Assembly: GCA_000993115.1 (NCBI GenBank)
Contig: LBVN01000001.1
Span: forward strand, 19,924-83,923
DNA from: Candidatus Woesebacteria bacterium GW2011_GWB1_38_8b
GTDB taxonomy: Bacteria > Patescibacteriota > Microgenomatia > UBA8517
DNA length: 64,000 nucleotides
Reading direction: 5' to 3'
Shown: positions 1,860 through 57,991 of the stretch, in pieces
Layout of the letters: the number at the start of each line of letters is the position of its first letter
Numbering within the stretch: the first letter of the stretch is position 1
The notes under the pieces: generated by a model
Databases searched by the model: none
Told to the model about the DNA's origin: nothing
What the model saw: only the letters and a program-made list of their open reading frames with translations
Translations under genes and position numbers: made by a program

Positions 1860-3434
1860 ATGGAAAATAAATTTAAGATTCGAGCGGTTGTATACGCTCG
1901 AGTAAGTACAAAAGAGCAAGTTGAGGGTAAGATCTCGATCCCTTCGCAAATAACTGATTGTAAGAAAGTAATTGTAGAAAGAGGCTGGGAATTGGCCAAA
2001 GAGCCATATATCGATGAAGGAATAAGCGGTCATCTCCTGGAAGAACGCAAAGGGCTTCAAGACTTGCTCAGTGATGCTAGACAGCATCTTTTCGATCTGG
2101 TAATAGTCAAAGACTTCGACCGCTTTGCTAGAAACCGCGCTGCTGCAACAATCGTGCGCGAGGAGCTAAAAGAGCTTTTCATCCAAACTTACGCCCTAAA
2201 TACTCCAGTCGAGCCGAAGAATCCTAAGACATATGATCCCACAGACGATGACTTGGGGATTATGGTCGAGGGATACAGTGATACGATGTCTGAAATTGAG
2301 AGAAACAAGATTCGCAGACGAATGATGATGGGTAAAGTAGCCGTAGCCAAGGCAGGAAAAATCCCAAATAACGTACCTTATGGTTACAAAATAAAGCGCT
2401 CGATTGATGAGAAAGGAAAAGTGCATCGTAAAGTATTGGTAGATGAAGAAAAAGCCAAAATAGTCCGTCAAATATTTGATGACTATATAAGGGGTAAGGG
2501 AGCTCTCAATATCGCCTTTCAACTTACTGAGAAGGGCGTAAAACCACCTAGGGGTCAATATTGGCGAGCACAGGCTATCAAATACATGATCCAGAACCAA
2601 ACATACACAGGTAAGGTATTGTGGGGCTGGAGACACGCTGATTATAAGAAAAACCAACAGCGAAGGTTAAGAGGCCATCAAGGAATTATTGAAGACAGCA
2701 CTGAGCACAAAGCAATTATTCCTGAGGCTATTTTTGCGCTAGCTCAAAAGGAGAAAAAGATCAGAGGTAATTCCCAAAAAGGTCGAGGAAAACTCAGTCG
2801 AGGCCTACTTACGGGACTCGCAAAATGTATTCGCTGCGGATCTGGTGTAACTTATCTCACTCGTCACCATAATAGGAAGAAAAAGAATCTGAATTGGAAT
2901 GATACAACTACTTACGAATACCTGTGCGGTGGTTACAAATACAGTGGGATCTGCCAACGCAGGATAATGAGTGCCACTAAGCTTGAAGAGTTTGTCTTAA
3001 ACCAGATCAGAAACCTGGTTAATAATCCAACAGCCAGAGAAAGATTGATCTTCGATCGCAATATTGCCATATCAGATAACCTGGAAGATGACTACAAGTA
3101 CGCTGCAAAACAACTTGCTGACATCGAAAGAAGAAGGCAAAGGGTCAAGGAGGCTTATGAGGCGGGTATCGACTCGTTAGAGGTCTATGGAGGCAATTTA
3201 AAGCGCTTAGAGGAAGAAGAGAATAAGCACCATGTGGTAGCCGATGATTATCAATTTAAGCTTCAGAAGGTTAACGAGCGTCGCCAGGAACTAGAGAAAT
3301 TCACTAAATCTCTAGAAGACTTCAATACCTTATGGGATAATGCAGAGTTTGAAGAGAGAAAACATTTCCTGCGTATGATAATTAAAGAAATACGCGCGGG
3401 TAACGGAAATATTGAGATCGATTTTCGCTTCTAA
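1860..3434 (+). CDS. Large serine recombinase (integrase)
   Basis: N-terminal resolvase catalytic domain AVVYARVSTKEQ with the active-site Ser. A large recombinase domain follows, with a Cys-rich zinc ribbon (CIRCGSG...CGGYKYSGICQRR) and a C-terminal coiled coil. 524 aa. Confidence 0.9.
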   Translation: MENKFKIRAVVYARVSTKEQVEGKISIPSQITDCKKVIVERGWELAKEPYIDEGISGHLLEERKGLQDLLSDARQHLFDLVIVKDFDRFARNRAAATIVREELKELFIQTYALNTPVEPKNPKTYDPTDDDLGIMVEGYSDTMSEIERNKIRRRMMMGKVAVAKAGKIPNNVPYGYKIKRSIDEKGKVHRKVLVDEEKAKIVRQIFDDYIRGKGALNIAFQLTEKGVKPPRGQYWRAQAIKYMIQNQTYTGKVLWGWRHADYKKNQQRRLRGHQGIIEDSTEHKAIIPEAIFALAQKEKKIRGNSQKGRGKLSRGLLTGLAKCIRCGSGVTYLTRHHNRKKKNLNWNDTTTYEYLCGGYKYSGICQRRIMSATKLEEFVLNQIRNLVNNPTARERLIFDRNIAISDNLEDDYKYAAKQLADIERRRQRVKEAYEAGIDSLEVYGGNLKRLEEEENKHHVVADDYQFKLQKVNERRQELEKFTKSLEDFNTLWDNAEFEERKHFLRMIIKEIRAGNGNIEIDFRF

Positions 3435-10746: not shown

Positions 10747-12102
10747 TCAGTGATAATTTGACATCCAAATTACATAATCGGCTCCATCAACTCGTCCCGA
10801 ACTATTAAAGTCTCCAACAACGCGTCCTTGTGATGTTGTTTGGTTAAAATGATTAAGCCAGATAATATAGTCGACACCATCAACTCTCCCGTCACCATTT
10901 GCATCCCCCTGAACCAAAACTGTAGTTGGAGTTGGTGTTGGCGTACGAGTCGCTGTTGGAGTGGGTGTATTTGTTACGGCAGGTGTAGGGGTTGGAGTCG
11001 ATTGAGTTGAACCAGGCACCCAACCAGCAAGTTGGGCCATTAAAACCCAATAAGCTTTTGCTATTCTTACGTTTGCAGCACCCATACTGAAGTGGCCATT
11101 TTCGGTTTCTACTGTGTAATGTTGACAAATTGCCGGCTGGTTAATTCTATCATCAGGCCAATTTTCACAAACTGAGGTATTTTGACAATATAACACCCCG
11201 TCCCGGTTATCGTAACATTCCCTACCATCGGGCAGTGTGGCTTCGACATCCGCAAAATCAAGAAGTATTCTATAACGACCATTAGAATCCCGTCCGGAAT
11301 TGATAAATTGACGCATTTGATTATTAAAATTTGTTGAAACTTGTGTACCAATACTTCTTGCTAGACTCGTTGTCTGAAAGACAAAATATTTATTGCTATG
11401 TGCGACCAAACGTCTATCAAGATCGTAGACATCAGCTTTGTCACTGGAGTTATTATAAAAAAAACCACAACGTGGTTGATTACTCCCCCCGCAACTTGTT
11501 AAATTAGCTATAGAATCTCCATCCATCACATTCAAGTAGCTAAACTGGTAAGTATAAACATCAAAATCGTTTAAACTTCTCCCACCCTGAACCTGATTAT
11601 TATCAAGAAAAGTTATGTAATCGTTTGTCATTGTATACCACGTTGAAGCAAACCCTTCATGAATCCAGTTTGCACGATTGTAGCCACCAGTCCTACTCCA
11701 ATAAATATACTCAGGACTAAGATTATAACTTGGGTCGTTATGTACTAATTTTGTACACGTAAAGCTTGCTTGCGAACTTGATGGTGCTTCAAAGCAAGTT
11801 AACGCATCATTAGTAGTTACCCCTACGGAACGATTTCCAAATATTAACCTAATCTTTTCAGCCCTACAGAAATAACTTATTACACCAGTACTATCGTCTA
11901 TACAGTCACCATTTGAATCAGTAGTTGTAAAATCGGGGATTTGTTCGAAAAGAGCAATAGAATTTCTGTTAACAATTATTGGGGACTGCTGCAAGCGAAC
12001 GGATAAATTGGGATCTACCTGCGCATACACATTGCTCCTGCCAATCGAAAGTAATAAAAATGAAAAACAGACGGCAATAACCCTCTTGATAACTTTATAC
12101 AT
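10747..12102 (-). CDS. Secreted dockerin-bearing protein, unknown Cys-rich catalytic domain (family A, paralogue of 14580..15908)
   Basis: Signal peptide ending VYAQV. Conserved block CYDNRDGVLYC...PDD..NQPAICQHYTVE.ENGH..MGAANVRIAKAYWVLMAQLAGWVPG. C-terminal dockerin QGDANGDGRVDGVDYIIWLNHFNQ...GDFNSSGRVDGADYVIWMSNY. Confidence 0.6.
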   Translation of the reverse strand: MYKVIKRVIAVCFSFLLLSIGRSNVYAQVDPNLSVRLQQSPIIVNRNSIALFEQIPDFTTTDSNGDCIDDSTGVISYFCRAEKIRLIFGNRSVGVTTNDALTCFEAPSSSQASFTCTKLVHNDPSYNLSPEYIYWSRTGGYNRANWIHEGFASTWYTMTNDYITFLDNNQVQGGRSLNDFDVYTYQFSYLNVMDGDSIANLTSCGGSNQPRCGFFYNNSSDKADVYDLDRRLVAHSNKYFVFQTTSLARSIGTQVSTNFNNQMRQFINSGRDSNGRYRILLDFADVEATLPDGRECYDNRDGVLYCQNTSVCENWPDDRINQPAICQHYTVETENGHFSMGAANVRIAKAYWVLMAQLAGWVPGSTQSTPTPTPAVTNTPTPTATRTPTPTPTTVLVQGDANGDGRVDGVDYIIWLNHFNQTTSQGRVVGDFNSSGRVDGADYVIWMSNYH

Positions 12103-39383: not shown

Positions 39384-40289
39384 CTAATTAAATGCAGACT
39401 GAGTTTTTTCTTTTTTGGATAATCGGCCGAGGAGAAATGCAAAAACAGAGATCAAAAACATAACTACCGCGATCAAAATAAAGACAAAGTAATTGGTATG
39501 TTTTTGTAAGACCGGGATTTCAGTCGTCCCCTCTCCTAACACCTCCGGATTATTTTCGGAAATATTGCTTGGAAAAACAAATTTTTCTTCATTTGATTTG
39601 AGAGTTCTTTCTTCTTGATTCGATGCGAGGATCTTATCTACGGCTTTAGTTGGTTTGGGTTTTTCATTGTTTAAAATGGCATTGAGTGAACTTGCATTTG
39701 TAAGTGTCAAGCTATTTACGCTTTCCAAAACATCAATTCCGGCCTTATTTACAACATTTGTATCGTTTGTCATTCCGGCTTCATACGTAAAGGAAAAAAC
39801 TGATTTCGAATTTTCCGATTTGCTTTTAAAATATATTGTTGTAAGTCTGGCGGTGCTACCCGAAAAGTATTTTCCAAAGTCGTTGGAAAAAGCAACCTTT
39901 AATTTTCCTGAATTGTTATCAATAATTTCTTTAGCTTTGTATGTTAAGAGTCCGTAATCGGATATGTTTGTCAGTTCGATATTATTTGGATCGAAACTCA
40001 TTACCAGATCAACACCAACAATTTCTTCTTTCCCCGGGTTAAGATAGATATCGACTGAGCTGTTCGAGTCTTTTTTTAAAGAAATTGAATCGGGAGAAAA
40101 AGATAACGACGGAATGCTATCCGCTTTGACGGGTGAAACACATAACCAAAACAACAAAACCGCAATATTTATACTGAAAAATTTATTGAATTTACTTGCG
40201 AAATCTACGGACTTTAGTCTGTAGATGAAGCAAGAATCTAATCTTGTCGACAAAATACCATGGTCTTCAGCCTGTGGTAGTTTATTCAT
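39384..40289 (-). CDS. Membrane-anchored cohesin-domain protein (C-terminal TM helix plus basic tail); the start is uncertain
   Basis: Cohesin-like DSIPSLSFSPDSISLKKDSNSSVDIYLNPGKEEIVGVDLVMSFDPNNIELTNI...TTIYFKSK. C-terminus YFVFILIAVVMFLISVFAFLLGRLSKKEK. The annotated N-terminal 30 codons coincide with repeat-element copy 3. Confidence 0.55.
   Translation of the reverse strand: MNKLPQAEDHGILSTRLDSCFIYRLKSVDFASKFNKFFSINIAVLLFWLCVSPVKADSIPSLSFSPDSISLKKDSNSSVDIYLNPGKEEIVGVDLVMSFDPNNIELTNISDYGLLTYKAKEIIDNNSGKLKVAFSNDFGKYFSGSTARLTTIYFKSKSENSKSVFSFTYEAGMTNDTNVVNKAGIDVLESVNSLTLTNASSLNAILNNEKPKPTKAVDKILASNQEERTLKSNEEKFVFPSNISENNPEVLGEGTTEIPVLQKHTNYFVFILIAVVMFLISVFAFLLGRLSKKEKTQSAFN
40196..40262. 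repeat. Copy 3 (partial) of the intergenic repeat family: gcgaaatc + hairpin + atgaagc.agaatc + cgacaaaa
   Basis: gcgaaatctacggactttagtctgtagatgaagcaagaatctaatcttgtcgacaaaa aligns with copy 2 at 57903..57960. The hairpin sequence differs but the pairing is preserved. Confidence 0.55.
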
Positions 40290-46250: not shown

Positions 46251-47425
46251 CTACAAACTATCTTGCTTTCTGACCTCAATCTTCTCTTTTCCAATCCATT
46301 TTCTCAAAACTTCGGGTACGGTTACTGAACCATCTTCGTTTTGATAATTTTCCAAAATTGCAATAACAATTCTGCCGATCGCAAAGGCGGTGGCATCGTT
46401 CATATACACAAACTCAGTTTTATCTCCCTTTCTAACCTTAGTATTCAATCTTCGTGATTGGTAATCTGTCATGTAATCAGAAGTATGAGTTTCTCTATAT
46501 TTGTCTTGCCCGGGCAACCATGTTTCAATATCCATTTGTCGGTAATCCGGCCCACCCATATCCCCGGTACAAATTTCCACAACTTGATAGGGAAGCCTTT
46601 TGTATCTTTCCCGTAAGAGCCCGCTTCCCTTCTGAATGCCGTTGAAAAACCAATATATCGAATTGGTAAATCTTTTTCTAAAAGAGTTTCGTCCATGTGC
46701 AGTGGTCCTAATGTATGTTCAGCGCTTCCGATTAAATAGACGTCATCTGAGGGAATATAGTATCGTTCTTCTTTTGGATAAAGCCTACCCATCCGATCGA
46801 ACACCTCAGGTTTAATCATTACAGGCGGAACGACAGGAATAAAAGGTTTAGGGTTATATCCTTCCTCAACCTTATTTGCAATTTCCCTCAGGGTGCTTTC
46901 ATTTGTTAATGTTTCAAATACAAGTTGGACAATCGCGTATTCTATTAACACAGCCTCCCCCATTAGATATCCAAATCTCGTTCCGGTAATTTTTCCAGCT
47001 TTCTCAATATTTATTAGACCCAATTTTTCTCCAATTCCTACATGATCAAATGGTTTGAAATTAAATTTGGTCGGTTCACCCCATTTTCGAATTACTTTAT
47101 TTTCGGTATCATCCTTCCCAATTTTTACATCATCAGCTGCAGGATTTGGTAATTTTTTCAGAATTTCAAAATACTCAGAGTCGATTTTTTCCAATTCCGG
47201 TTCCAACTTTTGCAGCTCAACCTTTAATCTTTTACCCGATTCAATGTCCTTATTTTTTGCCGCAGTGTTTCTGTCGGCTCTCAATTTTTCAACCTGACTT
47301 AAAAGCTCACGTTTCTTCCCATCCAATTCCAATACTTTATCAACTAAAGCAGGATCATAATTTTTATCAGTGACGCCTTTTTTTATTTTGTCCGGATTAT
47401 CACGGATAATTTGTATATCTAACAT
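46251..47425 (-). pseudogene. serS: Seryl-tRNA synthetase gene disrupted by a ~120-nt internal deletion plus a frameshift (ORFs 46469..47425 and 46251..46580)
   Basis: The N-terminal ORF has the SerRS coiled-coil arm and motif FRREAGSYGKDTKG. The C-terminal ORF has CTGDMG...DIETWLPGQDKYRE...AIGRIVIAILENYQNEDGSVTVPEVL. The ~40 aa between them that should carry R(V/M)HQFDKVE are absent, and the two halves are in different frames. Confidence 0.6.
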
Positions 47426-50706: not shown

Positions 50707-50783
50707 TTATTGCATATCTCTTGCGAAATCCAAACTTGGCGACAAAAACTACGCACTTAAGTGCGTAGAAGTTTATTTTTTTT
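50707..50783. repeat. Copy 1 of the intergenic repeat family, ending in a palindromic terminator hairpin
   Basis: ttattgcatatctcttgcgaaatccaaacttggcgacaaaaactacgcacttaagtgcgtagaagtttattttttt. It is collinear with copy 2 at 57886..57991 apart from a 31-nt hairpin insert in copy 2. Confidence 0.6.
50749..50783. terminator. Bidirectional rho-independent terminator (perfect palindrome flanked by T-runs on both strands)
   Basis: ctacgcact taa agtgcgtag is followed by gtttattttttt on the plus strand. On the minus strand the same stem is followed by ttttt. Confidence 0.5.
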
Positions 50784-51930
50784 CAAGTATAATTGTCTGA
50801 TGCGTAAGAAAATAACAGTGTTTACCCTACTTCTGCTGGGATTGTTTTTCATTTCTGTTTCTGCATCTTATCTTTTTTTTATATATAAAAAGGTTTATGT
50901 TGCTCCCGTTAGTCCTCCACCAAATGCAACCCCTACTCCAACGCCTGACCCAATGGCACCTAAAAATATACTGCTTTTAGGTTACGGTGGTGCGGGCCAT
51001 GAAGGAGGCACTTTAACTGACACGATGATAGTTGCCCACTTAATTCCGAAAGAAAAAAAGGTATTTTTAATTTCAATTCCGCGTGACATTTGGGTACCGA
51101 TCCCGATGAAAAACGGTACTCAAAATTTTAAAATTAACCATGCATTTTCAATCGGAGTTGACGAAAAACGTTTTCCCGAAAAACTTCCTCAATATACAGG
51201 AATTGCAGGAGCGGGTTTGTTATCCCGCGAAATGGTCGGGTTAGTAACCGGCCTTAAAATCGATAATTTTGTATCGGTAAACTTTGAGGGCTTTAAAAAT
51301 ATAGTAAATATTTTAGGAGGAATTAACATTTACGTTCCTTATTCATTTAAAGACGAATATTATCCGATTAAGGGTAAAGAAGATGACACTTGCGGGCTAA
51401 CCGAAGAGCAATTGACAGCCATTCACGCGACACTTTCGGGACAGCTCTTAGAGCAGGAATTTAAATGTAGATTTGAAACCATAGAATTTACAAAGGGATT
51501 AATTTTGATGGACGGAGAAACTTCGCTTAAATTCGTCCGTTCAAGACATTCCGATATTAACGGGGGCGATTTTGGCCGATCGCTCCGACAACAGGCGTTT
51601 ATCGTCGCTGTTAAAAATAAACTTCTAAGTTTTGGCAGTTTTACAAAATTAATCCCTGTAATAAACAGTATTTCAAAAAACACTCAAACAGATATCGATA
51701 TTAAAAGTGCCCTTAATTTTGTTTCGTCAAATTTTGAAATCGGAGATTTTGAAATAAAAACAGTAACACTAACTACCGATAACGTATTAACAGATACAAT
51801 TTCTTCCGATAAACAGTACATTTTGATTCCAAAAGCCGGTGAAGGAAATTGGGACGAAATTCATAAATTTATTTCTGACGCAGTAACTCAAAAACCTACT
51901 GTCACTCAAACTCCGAAAGTCACAAATTAA
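50761..51930 (+). CDS. LytR-CpsA-Psr (LCP) family cell-envelope polymer transferase; the likely true start is the ATG at 50800 (MRKKITVF...)
   Basis: N-terminal TM, then the LCP core (ILLLGYGGAGHEGGTLTDTMIVAHL...ISIPRDIWVPIP...LKFVRSRHSD..GDFGRSLRQQ). Confidence 0.75.
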   Translation: MRRSLFFFKYNCLMRKKITVFTLLLLGLFFISVSASYLFFIYKKVYVAPVSPPPNATPTPTPDPMAPKNILLLGYGGAGHEGGTLTDTMIVAHLIPKEKKVFLISIPRDIWVPIPMKNGTQNFKINHAFSIGVDEKRFPEKLPQYTGIAGAGLLSREMVGLVTGLKIDNFVSVNFEGFKNIVNILGGINIYVPYSFKDEYYPIKGKEDDTCGLTEEQLTAIHATLSGQLLEQEFKCRFETIEFTKGLILMDGETSLKFVRSRHSDINGGDFGRSLRQQAFIVAVKNKLLSFGSFTKLIPVINSISKNTQTDIDIKSALNFVSSNFEIGDFEIKTVTLTTDNVLTDTISSDKQYILIPKAGEGNWDEIHKFISDAVTQKPTVTQTPKVTN

Positions 51931-57843: not shown

Positions 57844-57870
57844 TTAGCAGTCTATTGCAGCTAGTGCTAA
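57844..57870. promoter_or_regulatory. CIRCE-like inverted repeat (putative HrcA operator) 14 nt upstream of the lon start, overlapping its promoter
   Basis: Minus strand TTAGCACTA-gctgcaata-GACTGCTAA versus consensus TTAGCACTC-N9-GAGTGCTAA (8/9 + 8/9 with a 9-nt spacer). A TTGACA lies just upstream on the minus strand. Confidence 0.5.
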
Positions 57871-57885
57871 ATGTCAAGCACTAAA

Positions 57886-57991
57886 TTATTGCATATCTCT
57901 AGCGAAATCCACAACTTTCAAGTTGTGGATGAAGCTAGAATCCAAACCTGGCGACAAAAACTACGCACTTTAGTGCGTAGCAGTTTATCTT
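57886..57991. repeat. Copy 2 of the intergenic repeat family, between the PAP2 stop and the lon promoter
   Basis: ttattgcatatctctagcgaaatcca[caactttcaagttgtggatgaagctagaatcca]aacctggcgacaaaaactacgcactttagtgcgtagcagtttatctt. The bracketed 31 nt are absent from copy 1 and contain a perfect 9-bp hairpin. Confidence 0.6.
57956..57980 (-). terminator. Rho-independent terminator of the PAP2 gene (palindromic hairpin plus U5 on the minus strand)
   Basis: Minus strand reads ctacgcact aaa gtgcgtag ttttt, starting 5 nt after the PAP2 stop codon. Confidence 0.55.

What the first reader, a model, noticed from the sequence alone, without database searches (positions are those of the whole stretch)
50707..50783. 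Small repeated intergenic element (3 copies) with hairpins that differ in sequence but keep pairing, and a palindromic bidirectional terminator
Copies lie at 50707..50783 (between the greA and LCP promoters), 57886..57991 (PAP2 stop to lon promoter) and, partial, 40196..40262 (between the scaffoldin gene and the anchored-cohesin gene). They share ttattgcatatctct(t/a)gcgaaatcca, gcgaaatc-HAIRPIN-atgaagc(a/t)agaatc and aac(t/c)tggcgacaaaaa ctacgcact-t(a/t)a-agtgcgtag. The internal hairpins differ in sequence but keep pairing (ccacaactt/aagttgtgg versus ctacggact/agtctgtag with a G-U). That is what a structured RNA or REP/MITE-like element would show. In copy 1 a TTGTCA-15-TATGAT promoter-like sequence upstream on the plus strand could drive a ~85-nt sRNA ending at the T7 terminator.
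Basis: seen in the sequence. Interest (0 to 1): 0.55.

Follow-up and report, generated by a model that had tools for sequence, protein, structure and literature searches.

The report
Small mobile hairpin repeat in Woesebacteria
The three look-alike stretches are copies of a 99-base jumping DNA element with no gene of its own, found in a few groundwater Woesebacteria (tiny-genome "CPR" bacteria); it lands next to the sequence TTAT at gene starts and can even sit in frame inside a gene, so it is selfish DNA, not a small-RNA gene.

Summary
The window (Candidatus Woesebacteria GW2011_GWA1_37_8) holds exactly three copies, all on the + strand: c2 57886-57989 (full), c3 40183-40286 (full, a second subfamily, not partial) and c1 50707-50777 (lost the left hairpin by a 33-nt deletion between two AATCC).

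At least nine more copies occur at other loci, at least six of them assigned to GW2011_GWA1_39_21. That genome also has a related ~165-nt family B and a 52-nt mini-B.

The element is mobile DNA:
- Relatives with 85-93% identical Lon have a 54-57 nt PAP2-lon spacer without it.
- Metagenome contigs from other samples carry the c3 site empty, exactly 99 nt shorter with near-identical flanks.

Anatomy: no terminal inverted repeats, always TTAT|TG...GTTTAT|(T), and two related hairpins kept by compensatory changes, each preceded by an A-run. This resembles gene-less IS200/IS605 derivatives (PATEs) moved as single strands by a Y1 transposase. No such enzyme or autonomous parent was found.

c3 adds 33 in-frame codons to a signal peptide. 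An A+B pair sits in frame in a prepilin leader, as Rickettsia palindromic elements do. The right hairpin scores as a terminator on both strands. The small-RNA reading has no support: no shared promoter and no Rfam match.

The parts
57886..57989 (+). Copy c2, full length (104 nt including both TTAT(T) repeats; subfamily with c1). It sits between the PAP2 stop codon (57985-57987, minus strand) and the lon promoter.
   Evidence: The site is empty in L028/L029/L030/L032, where the PAP2-lon spacer is 54-57 nt against 155 nt here.
57898..57939 (+). c2 left-end long hairpin: outer stem TCTAGC/GCTAGA, GAA/GAA internal loop, 10-bp inner stem ATCCACAACT/AGTTGTGGAT.
   Evidence: fold, z = -6.3; covariation
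57961..57980 (+). c2 right-end hairpin CTACGCAC-TTTA-GTGCGTAG. An A-run precedes it and CAGTTTAT follows it. It is terminator-like on both strands.
40183..40286 (+). Copy c3, full length, of the subfamily shared with GW2011_GWA1_39_21. It lies in frame (33 codons, read on the minus strand) after codons M-N-K of the 301-aa ORF 39384-40289(-). Its right-end TTTAT also contains the TAA stop of the upstream cohesin/dockerin gene.
40195..40234 (+). c3 left-end long hairpin: CTTGC / GAA / ATCTACGGAC ... GTCTGTAGAT / GAA / GCAAG, with one G-U pair on the + strand.
40256..40279 (+). c3 right-end hairpin TACCATGGTC-TTCA-GCCTGTGGTA. It has two G-U/U-G pairs on the + strand, which are C-A mismatches on the minus (coding) strand.
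50707..50777 (+). Copy c1, truncated (71 nt). The left hairpin is missing through a 33-nt deletion between AATCC repeats. It lies in the divergent greA/LCP region, 10 nt upstream of the LCP TATAAT (50788-50793; ATG at 50800).
   Evidence: the L032 empty site reads TTTCAAAAT|TTTTGACGTATAAT
50749..50768 (+). c1 right-end hairpin CTACGCAC-TTAA-GTGCGTAG. AAGTTTAT plus a T-run follows on the + strand and TTTTTGTCGC on the minus strand.

Best explanation
The three sequences are copies of a non-autonomous mobile DNA element with a 99-nt unit, called family A here. It is so far seen only in Rifle-aquifer Woesebacteria.

Shown:
- It inserts and/or excises precisely.
- It has no terminal inverted repeats.
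- It always lies as flank-TTAT|TG(A/C)AT ... GTTTAT|(T)-flank.
- It carries a long imperfect hairpin 16-18 nt inside the left end and a second, similar hairpin 2-6 nt inside the right end. Both are on the same strand, and each is preceded by CGA(N)AAA(A/T).
- The hairpins are kept by compensatory substitutions.
- A longer family B and a mini-B share this end design, sit in tandem with A, and share one TTTATT with it.

Inferred (about 0.45): the element moves as single-stranded DNA by a Y1 HUH transposase supplied in trans, the IS200/IS605 'peel-and-paste' mechanism. The enzyme would bind the two hairpins and cut after TTAT at both ends. The A-runs 5' of the hairpin feet would act as guide sequences for the T-rich cleavage and target site. 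This would make it a PATE-like derivative.

Side effects, read from sequence only:
- The right hairpin with its flanking A- and T-runs gives a two-way intrinsic terminator. In c2 it now follows PAP2 just upstream of the lon promoter.
- Because its target AATAAA is common at gene starts, copies pile up at the 5' ends of genes.
- Copies are tolerated in frame in cleavable N-terminal leaders: the c3 signal peptide and a prepilin leader in GWA1_39_21.
For: Copies:
- Three in the window.
- At least nine further loci of family A: L002, L003, L006, L007, L010b, L033, L039a, L039b, L045. At least six are assigned to GW2011_GWA1_39_21 (record titles; cluster names).

Mobility:
- The PAP2-lon spacer is 54-57 nt in relatives with 93%, 88% and 85% identical Lon, against 155 nt here. 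The junctions are CACTAAATTAT[...]CTTAGAGCC (filled) and CACTAAATTAGTTTAGGGCC (empty).
- The greA-LCP empty site is seen in L032.
- c3 is polymorphic. P0141 is identical to the window protein minus 33 aa. The DNA alignment shows exactly 99 extra nt between two AATAAA, with one SNP in about 160 nt of flank.
- Orthologues at 37-64% identity also lack the 33 aa.
- No copy was found in 88 kb of the closer relatives, although the more distant GWA1_39_21 (Lon 75% identical) carries many. This fits horizontal spread.

End anatomy:
- The alignment shows the constant ends.
- The base before the left TTAT varies (A or T) while the right end is constant (GTTTAT). In c2 and L039a the base after the right TTAT differs from T. 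This fits a join made directly after TTAT.
- The left and right hairpins resemble each other within each family.

Pairing.

Comparison with IS608: its cleavage sites lie 19 nt 5' of the left hairpin and 10 nt 3' of the right hairpin. Its guide sequences are the 4 nt 5' of each hairpin foot. Excision is precise (PMC3201880). Gene-less PATE derivatives are known (PMC10055086).

Terminator calls.
Against: - No Y1 transposase was detected in about 490 kb of held Woesebacteria DNA, partly redundant. Neither a Y1 transposase nor TnpB was seen in the 40 window ORFs scanned with Pfam, which leaves out about a dozen large ORFs between 3.4 and 36.7 kb.
- No autonomous element with these ends appeared in the genome-collection scan.
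- The orientation of copies shows no consistent relation to local GC skew: five negative, five positive and two near zero. IS200/IS605 members are biased to the lagging-strand template (PMC5027513).
- In 11 of 12 loci the proposed top strand is antisense to the gene next to the left end.
- The TTAT(T) direct repeat could equally be a 4-6 bp target duplication.
- Terminator activity, transcription and translation of the in-frame insertions are untested.
Confidence: 0.8

Rival explanations
1. A multi-copy small-RNA gene or other trans-acting structured RNA. It would be transcribed from the + strand, in copy 1 from TTGTCA-15-TATGAT to the T-run.
For: Stable folds with z down to -6.8. Compensatory changes. 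About 14 G-U cells pair only on the + strand. The c1 hairpin is followed by a T-run.
Against: The copies share no promoter and their flanks are unrelated. The proposed -35 is the reverse complement of the greA -35, the spacer is 15 nt, and the site was not called. No Rfam match. Copies sit inside coding sequence. Presence/absence varies within one population. Close relatives lack the element. Ten of the G-U cells are a single inherited T-G pair.
Confidence: 0.05
2. A dispersed functional cis-element: a two-way terminator or insulator cassette kept by selection at gene boundaries. The repeat would spread by any means but persist because it separates transcription units.
For: Hairpin 2 is the top terminator-like call on both strands. 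In c2, c3, L039a, L033 and L017 the right end faces the 3' end of an upstream gene. In 11 of 12 loci the left end faces a gene start.
Against: Two insertions put this hairpin inside a coding region. The empty allele of c3 coexists with the filled one. Relatives manage without the element at the same boundaries. The excess of AATAAA over TTTATT near gene starts (29 to 15) explains much of the orientation bias (P about 0.05 after allowing for it).
Confidence: 0.12
3. A classical MITE moved by a DDE transposase that makes a 4-6 bp target duplication of TTAT(T).
For: Direct repeats of 4-8 nt flank every copy, and the empty c3 site holds one copy of AATAAA.
Against: There are no terminal inverted repeats: the left end is TGAATTCATCTG and the right end is CCGTGGTAGTTTAT. 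The 'duplication' has the same sequence at 11 of 12 sites. The left repeat varies at its outer base while the right repeat does not.
Confidence: 0.1
4. A REP/REPIN-like element handled by a RAYT (TnpA-REP), a different branch of the same HUH enzyme class.
For: The element consists of two ~40-nt imperfect palindromes. Every hairpin ends in GT(A/G)G.
Against: The GT(A/G)G is paired inside the stem, not a free 5' head. The two palindromes are in direct, not inverted, order. Copy number is low. Some copies lie inside genes. No Y1-type enzyme was detected with an IS200-type TnpA profile; no RAYT sequence was included in that profile.
Confidence: 0.08
5. Independent terminators with chance similarity in their flanks.
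For: None beyond the presence of a hairpin followed by a T-run.
Against: E-values of 1e-14 to 1e-35 over about 100 nt. The 99-nt unit is identical in length in two genomes.
Confidence: 0.01

Closest known systems
PATEs: gene-less derivatives of IS200/IS605 insertion sequences (IS608 as the reference)
   Same: No terminal inverted repeats. Insertion directly 3' of a fixed tetranucleotide (TTAT here, TTAC in IS608). Similar imperfect hairpins near both ends on one strand, farther from the left end (16-18 nt against 19) than from the right end (2-6 nt against 10). Short A-rich sequences 5' of both hairpin feet that could pair with the T-rich cleavage site. Precise empty sites. No coding capacity.
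   Different: No cognate TnpA or autonomous parent was found. No replication-strand bias. The right cleavage site is closer to the hairpin than in IS608. No sequence similarity to any described IS end was tested or found.
Rickettsia palindromic elements (RPEs)
   Same: A 100-150-nt palindromic repeat that can insert in frame into protein-coding genes and stay open (c3: 33 codons; A+B in a prepilin leader: about 90 codons). No transposase is known for it. The host has a small, reduced genome.
   Different: Here most copies are intergenic at gene starts. The two coding insertions lie in cleavable N-terminal leaders, not in protein bodies. The phylum is unrelated, and sequence relationship to RPEs was not tested.
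REP/BIME and terminator-like repeats (e.g. the pneumococcal SPRITE, Neisseria Correia elements)
   Same: Dispersed intergenic hairpin repeats that can end transcripts and reshape promoters.
   Different: Correia elements and other MITEs have terminal inverted repeats and a TA duplication. REPs have a free GTAG head and very high copy number. This element has neither.

Membership tests
IS200/IS605-derived non-autonomous element (PATE) | No terminal inverted repeats | tested here: met
   The alignment of 12 copies shows unrelated left and right termini.
IS200/IS605-derived non-autonomous element (PATE) | Insertion 3' of a conserved tetra- or pentanucleotide without target duplication | tested here: inconclusive
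   TTAT lies at the left flank in 11 of 12 copies (TCAT in L002) and the right end is GTTTAT. The empty c3 site holds one AATAAA. A 4-6 bp duplication of a fixed target would look the same.
IS200/IS605-derived non-autonomous element (PATE) | Similar subterminal imperfect palindromes at both ends on one strand, with asymmetric distances to the cleavage sites | tested here: met
   The left hairpin is 16-18 nt from the left TTAT and the right hairpin 2-6 nt from the right TTAT. IS608 has 19 and 10 nt (PMC3201880).
IS200/IS605-derived non-autonomous element (PATE) | Guide tetranucleotide 5' of each hairpin foot that pairs with the cleavage site | tested here: inconclusive
   AAAT or AAAA precedes both hairpins in families A and B. 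This is compatible with TTAT under the IS608 pattern (TTAC with AAAG). It cannot be verified without the enzyme.
IS200/IS605-derived non-autonomous element (PATE) | A Y1 (HUH) TnpA in the genome, ideally on an element with the same ends | tested here: not met
   No hit better than E = 0.49 in the six-frame ORFs of about 490 kb of held DNA. Nothing in the 40 window ORFs scanned with Pfam. No long element with this left end in the genome-collection scan. Whole genomes could not be searched, so absence is not proven.
IS200/IS605-derived non-autonomous element (PATE) | Orientation bias to the lagging-strand template | tested here: not met
   GC skew relative to the element strand is negative at five loci, positive at five and near zero at two. 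Skew on short contigs is a weak proxy.
Classical MITE | Terminal inverted repeats matching a DDE insertion sequence | tested here: not met
Classical MITE | Small, non-coding, multi-copy, with presence/absence polymorphism | tested here: met
REP / REPIN | Free GTAG head 5' of a GC-rich palindrome, inverted doublets, an associated RAYT gene | tested here: not met
   GT(A/G)G is present but paired within the stems, and the hairpins are in direct order. No Y1-type enzyme was detected with an IS200-type TnpA profile; no RAYT sequence was in that profile.
Rickettsia palindromic elements | In-frame, stop-free insertion into coding genes | tested here: met
   c3 adds 33 codons. A+B lie in the prepilin leader of GWA1_39_21.
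Rickettsia palindromic elements | Sequence homology to RPE families | not tested
Rfam gave no match.
Known small-RNA / cis-regulatory RNA families (Rfam 15) | Match at the gathering score | tested here: not met
   Only the tRNA-Glu in the window reaches a gathering score. The best sub-threshold hits have E of 2-7 and 0.04.
Intrinsic (Rho-independent) terminator | GC-rich stem-loop followed by a T-run | tested here: met
   Hairpin 2 of c1 and c2 is called on both strands, and that of c3 on the + strand. Activity is not testable here.

The most novel reading that the evidence does not exclude
This may be the first described active family of gene-less mobile elements in Candidate Phyla Radiation bacteria. 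It would move precisely in genomes that may encode no IS200/IS605 transposase, and so use an unrecognised enzyme or a helper from a co-resident organism or phage. It would also be built to stay open-reading, so that it can lodge in frame in the leaders of secreted proteins.
Probability: 0.2. Interest if true: 0.7.

Novelty: new member of a known kind. Interest (0 to 1): 0.5.

Why it matters
CPR bacteria have genomes of about 1 Mb. Two full-text searches found no description of small repeat elements in them.

This family is caught in the act, with filled and empty alleles among groundwater samples. It is shared by two Woesebacteria that are only about 75% identical in Lon yet is missing from closer relatives. 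That makes it a marker of gene flow between co-resident CPR lineages.

It also reshapes gene boundaries:
- It places a terminator-like hairpin between PAP2 and the lon promoter.
- It splits the LCP promoter.
- It lengthens the N-terminal leaders of a cohesin-family surface protein and a pilin.

For annotation, it explains spurious ORFs (P0121, P0123) and N-terminal extensions (P0122, P0138) in public Woesebacteria records.

Tried and rejected
- Short-motif searches gave two extra candidates in the window (33608, 62828). Both lie in coding sequence and are chance matches.
- The genome and metagenome pattern scans also returned L001, L004, L005, L009, L011, L012 and L015. L005 lies within long ORFs and L009 in high-GC sequence; all have flanks unrelated to the element. 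I treated them as the few chance matches expected.
- The viral-contig scan found nothing.
- Rfam at the gathering score and at a lax E-value found nothing.
- I looked by eye for an internal promoter on either strand and found no convincing -35/-10 pair. The scan called none inside the copies.
- I considered that the conserved ATGAAGCAAG might start a coding gene. Differences between subfamilies are not biased to synonymous changes, and c2 has a stop in that frame.
- The replication-strand bias test by GC skew gave mixed results.
- A search for a Y1 transposase with a profile built from IS608 and Sulfolobus TnpA sequences found nothing.
- I considered attC (integron) sites, dif/Xer sites, a hammerhead ribozyme in family B, and group II intron ends, and dropped each on sequence grounds alone.
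- The first nhmmer pass missed the newly fetched loci. Rerunning with --max recovered them.

Full report
**What is there**

A profile built from the copies scores them at E = 1e-14 to 2.5e-35. A covariance model run without filters finds these three and nothing else in the 64 kb.

Their common limits are TTATTG at the left and GTTTAT(T) at the right.
- c2 (57886-57989) and c3 (40183-40286) are full length: 104 nt counting both TTAT(T) repeats, with a 99-nt unit.
- c1 (50707-50777) has lost 33 nt, including the left hairpin, between two AATCC repeats.
- c1 and c2 form one subfamily. c3 belongs to a second.

Pfam confirms the neighbouring genes as greA, an LCP-family gene, PAP2, lon and cohesin/dockerin proteins.

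**Where the window comes from**

Exact protein look-ups and the Lon search place the window in Candidatus Woesebacteria bacterium GW2011_GWA1_37_8. This is a Candidate Phyla Radiation genome from the Rifle aquifer. It is not a clostridial cellulosome producer, as the cohesin genes might suggest.

**More copies elsewhere**

A pattern scan of one genome per species found four copies in a second Rifle genome, GW2011_GWA1_39_21. It found nothing convincing in any other genome. The metagenome scan returned the same loci.

I then used the six-frame peptides of the element as a protein query. This recovered three predicted 'proteins' that run through copies. Their contigs added five more loci.

In all there are 12 distinct insertion sites of family A:
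- three in the window;
- nine elsewhere, of which at least six are assigned to GWA1_39_21 (record titles; cluster names).

GWA1_39_21 also has a related family B of about 165 nt. B sits in tandem directly after A's GTTTATT at two loci. A 52-nt mini-B is flanked by AATAAA. B has the same end design: CGCGA(T/A)AA-hairpin-CTGAAGC at the left and GGCGAGAAAA-hairpin-TTGTTTAT at the right.

**It is mobile DNA**

Three lines of evidence show this.

1. Three relatives whose Lon is 93%, 88% and 85% identical have the same PAP2-lon gene order but a spacer of only 54-57 nt. The window has 155 nt.
   - The filled junctions read CACTAAATTAT[TGCAT...GCAGTTTAT]CTTAGAGCC.
   - The closest empty site reads CACTAAATTAGTTTAGGGCC.
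2. The greA-LCP spacer of L032 shows the empty site for c1: TTTCAAAAT|TTTTGACGTATAAT. The insertion lies just upstream of the LCP -10 box.
3. The c3 site is polymorphic among the groundwater samples, and this is the decisive line.
   - The 90%-identity cluster of the 301-aa protein contains 268-aa members. One of them, P0141, is identical to the window protein apart from 33 missing residues.
   - Its contigs align to the window with one SNP in about 160 nt of flank and exactly 99 nt absent.
   - Empty: GGGAAGATG-AATAAA-TTTTTCAG. Filled: GGGAAGATG-AATAAA-CTACC...AAATTC-AATAAA-TTTTTCAG.
   - More distant orthologues (37-64% identity) also start MNKF... without the 33 residues.

No copy occurs in 88 kb from the three closer relatives. 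Yet the more distant GWA1_39_21 (Lon 75% identical) carries many copies of the c3 subfamily. This fits transfer between co-resident lineages.

**Anatomy**

There are no terminal inverted repeats. Every copy lies as flank-TTAT|TG(A/C)AT...GTTTAT|flank.
- The base before the left TTAT varies (A or T).
- The right end is constantly GTTTAT.
- The base after the right end is T in 10 of 12 copies, C in c2 and A in L039a.
- The simplest description is therefore a join made directly after TTAT, with a preference for a following T.

It has an outer stem (TCTAGC/GCTAGA in c2, CTTGC/GCAAG in c3), a GAA/GAA internal loop and a 10-bp inner stem.

The right hairpin resembles the left one (CCAYGGRC-TTTA-GYCCGTGG). 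Both are preceded by CGA(N)AAA(A/T). In family B the two hairpins also resemble each other, but not those of A.

Over 22 pairs and 12 copies, 95.6% of cells pair. Nine pairs change on both sides, against 2.0 +/- 1.2 in shuffles. Sliding the partner column drops pairing to 28-40%. Most double changes separate the c1/c2 subfamily from the rest, so they represent few independent events.

**How it most likely moves**

The combination of features is that of the IS200/IS605 family and its gene-less derivatives (PATEs):
- no inverted repeats;
- a fixed tetranucleotide at the left flank, repeated at the right end;
- two alike subterminal hairpins on one strand, far from the left end and near the right end;
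- A-runs just 5' of both hairpin feet;
- precise empty sites.

In IS608 the left cleavage site TTAC lies 19 nt 5' of the left hairpin and is not part of the element. The right site lies 10 nt 3' of the right hairpin. Each site is read by four bases 5' of the hairpin foot, and excision is precise (PMC3201880). Gene-less PATEs moved in trans are documented (PMC10055086). Here the distances are 16-18 nt and 2-6 nt.

I put this mechanism at about 0.45, because several tests did not support it:
- No Y1 transposase was found in about 490 kb of held Woesebacteria DNA. None was found in the 40 window ORFs scanned with Pfam either. The only recombinase seen is a large serine recombinase at 1860-3434.
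- No long element with this left end turned up.
- Copy orientation does not follow local GC skew. IS200/IS605 members favour the lagging-strand template (PMC5027513).
- The TTAT(T) repeat could instead be a target duplication.

**Position and side effects**

In 11 of 12 loci the left end faces the 5' end of a gene on the opposite strand (13/4096 if orientation were random). Near gene starts AATAAA outnumbers TTTATT by 29 to 15 on the sense strand. Target availability therefore explains much of this bias, leaving P of about 0.05.

The right hairpin, with an A-run before it and a T-run after it, is the top terminator-like call on both strands in c1 and c2. In c2 it now stands between the PAP2 stop and the lon promoter (TTGACA-17-TAGACT).

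c3 adds 33 stop-free codons between MNK and the hydrophobic core of a signal peptide. In c3 the right hairpin has two G-U pairs on the + strand. These become C-A mismatches on the coding strand and weaken any terminator there.

In GWA1_39_21 an A+B tandem (about 90 codons) lies in frame in a prepilin leader, between MHKNK and SKRSFTLIELL. Both insertions are in N-terminal parts that are normally cleaved off, which may be why they are tolerated. This recalls the Rickettsia palindromic elements (PMC10969869).

**The small-RNA idea**

The copies share no upstream promoter. The TTGTCA proposed as a -35 box for copy 1 is the reverse complement of the -35 of the strong minus-strand greA promoter (50671-50643). 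With its 15-nt spacer the plus-strand site was not called. No Rfam family matches. Compensatory changes are equally expected for hairpins that must form in single-stranded DNA. I rate an RNA gene at about 0.05.

**Verdict**

This is a real and clearly mobile element: a new sequence family of a known general kind. Two full-text searches found no description of such elements in CPR bacteria. The open question is what moves it.

Noticed in passing
L033 10010-10176 (-), L045 2512-2647 (-), L002 4153-4204 (-): A second, related repeat family B (~165 nt) sits in tandem right after family A, sharing one TTTATT with it. A 52-nt mini-B fuses the left arm of B's left hairpin to the right arm of its right hairpin and is flanked by AATAAA. 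All are in GW2011_GWA1_39_21.
   Followed up: partly
L049 1350-1470: In another sample the same pilin gene carries element A without B, and the DNA upstream of A's right end is completely different (a polysaccharide-synthesis gene). This suggests a rearrangement with its breakpoint at the element end.
   Followed up: no
window 57849-57885 (-): The lon promoter TTGACA-17-TAGACT overlaps an inverted repeat, TTAGCACTA-N9-GACTGCTAA, that resembles the CIRCE heat-shock operator. It is conserved in relatives at 85-93% Lon identity (alignment A1).
   Followed up: no
window 50788-50802; L032 about 11005-11025: The LCP gene has TATAAT only 6 nt before its ATG and no Shine-Dalgarno sequence, in both this genome and a relative. 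The mRNA looks leaderless. Several genes next to element copies in GWA1_39_21 start 0-14 nt from the element end.
   Followed up: no
window 1860-3434 (+): A large serine recombinase (Resolvase, Recombinase and Zn_ribbon_recom domains; 524 aa). It is the only recombinase seen in the 40 ORFs scanned with Pfam. No link to the repeat was found.
   Followed up: no
window 46251-47425 (-): Seryl-tRNA synthetase appears split (318-aa and 109-aa ORFs), whereas relatives and other assemblies have 428-431 aa. This is a frameshift or an assembly error.
   Followed up: no
window 8143-43731 (-): A long run of very large minus-strand ORFs (up to 1015 aa). The flanking ORFs that were scanned carry cohesin and dockerin domains. 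A cellulosome-like surface system is unusual in a CPR genome.
   Followed up: no
L002 3680-3730: A 51-nt near-perfect palindrome (ATGTCATCCTCC...GGAGGATGTCAT) abuts the left end of the L002 copy and replaces the usual TTAT with TCAT. It may be another inserted element.
   Followed up: no
public records KKR12003.1, KKR10836.1, KKQ46367.1: Deposited Woesebacteria protein annotations include element-derived sequence. Two have N-terminal extensions running through the repeat, and one 141-aa 'hypothetical protein' starts inside it.
   Followed up: partly
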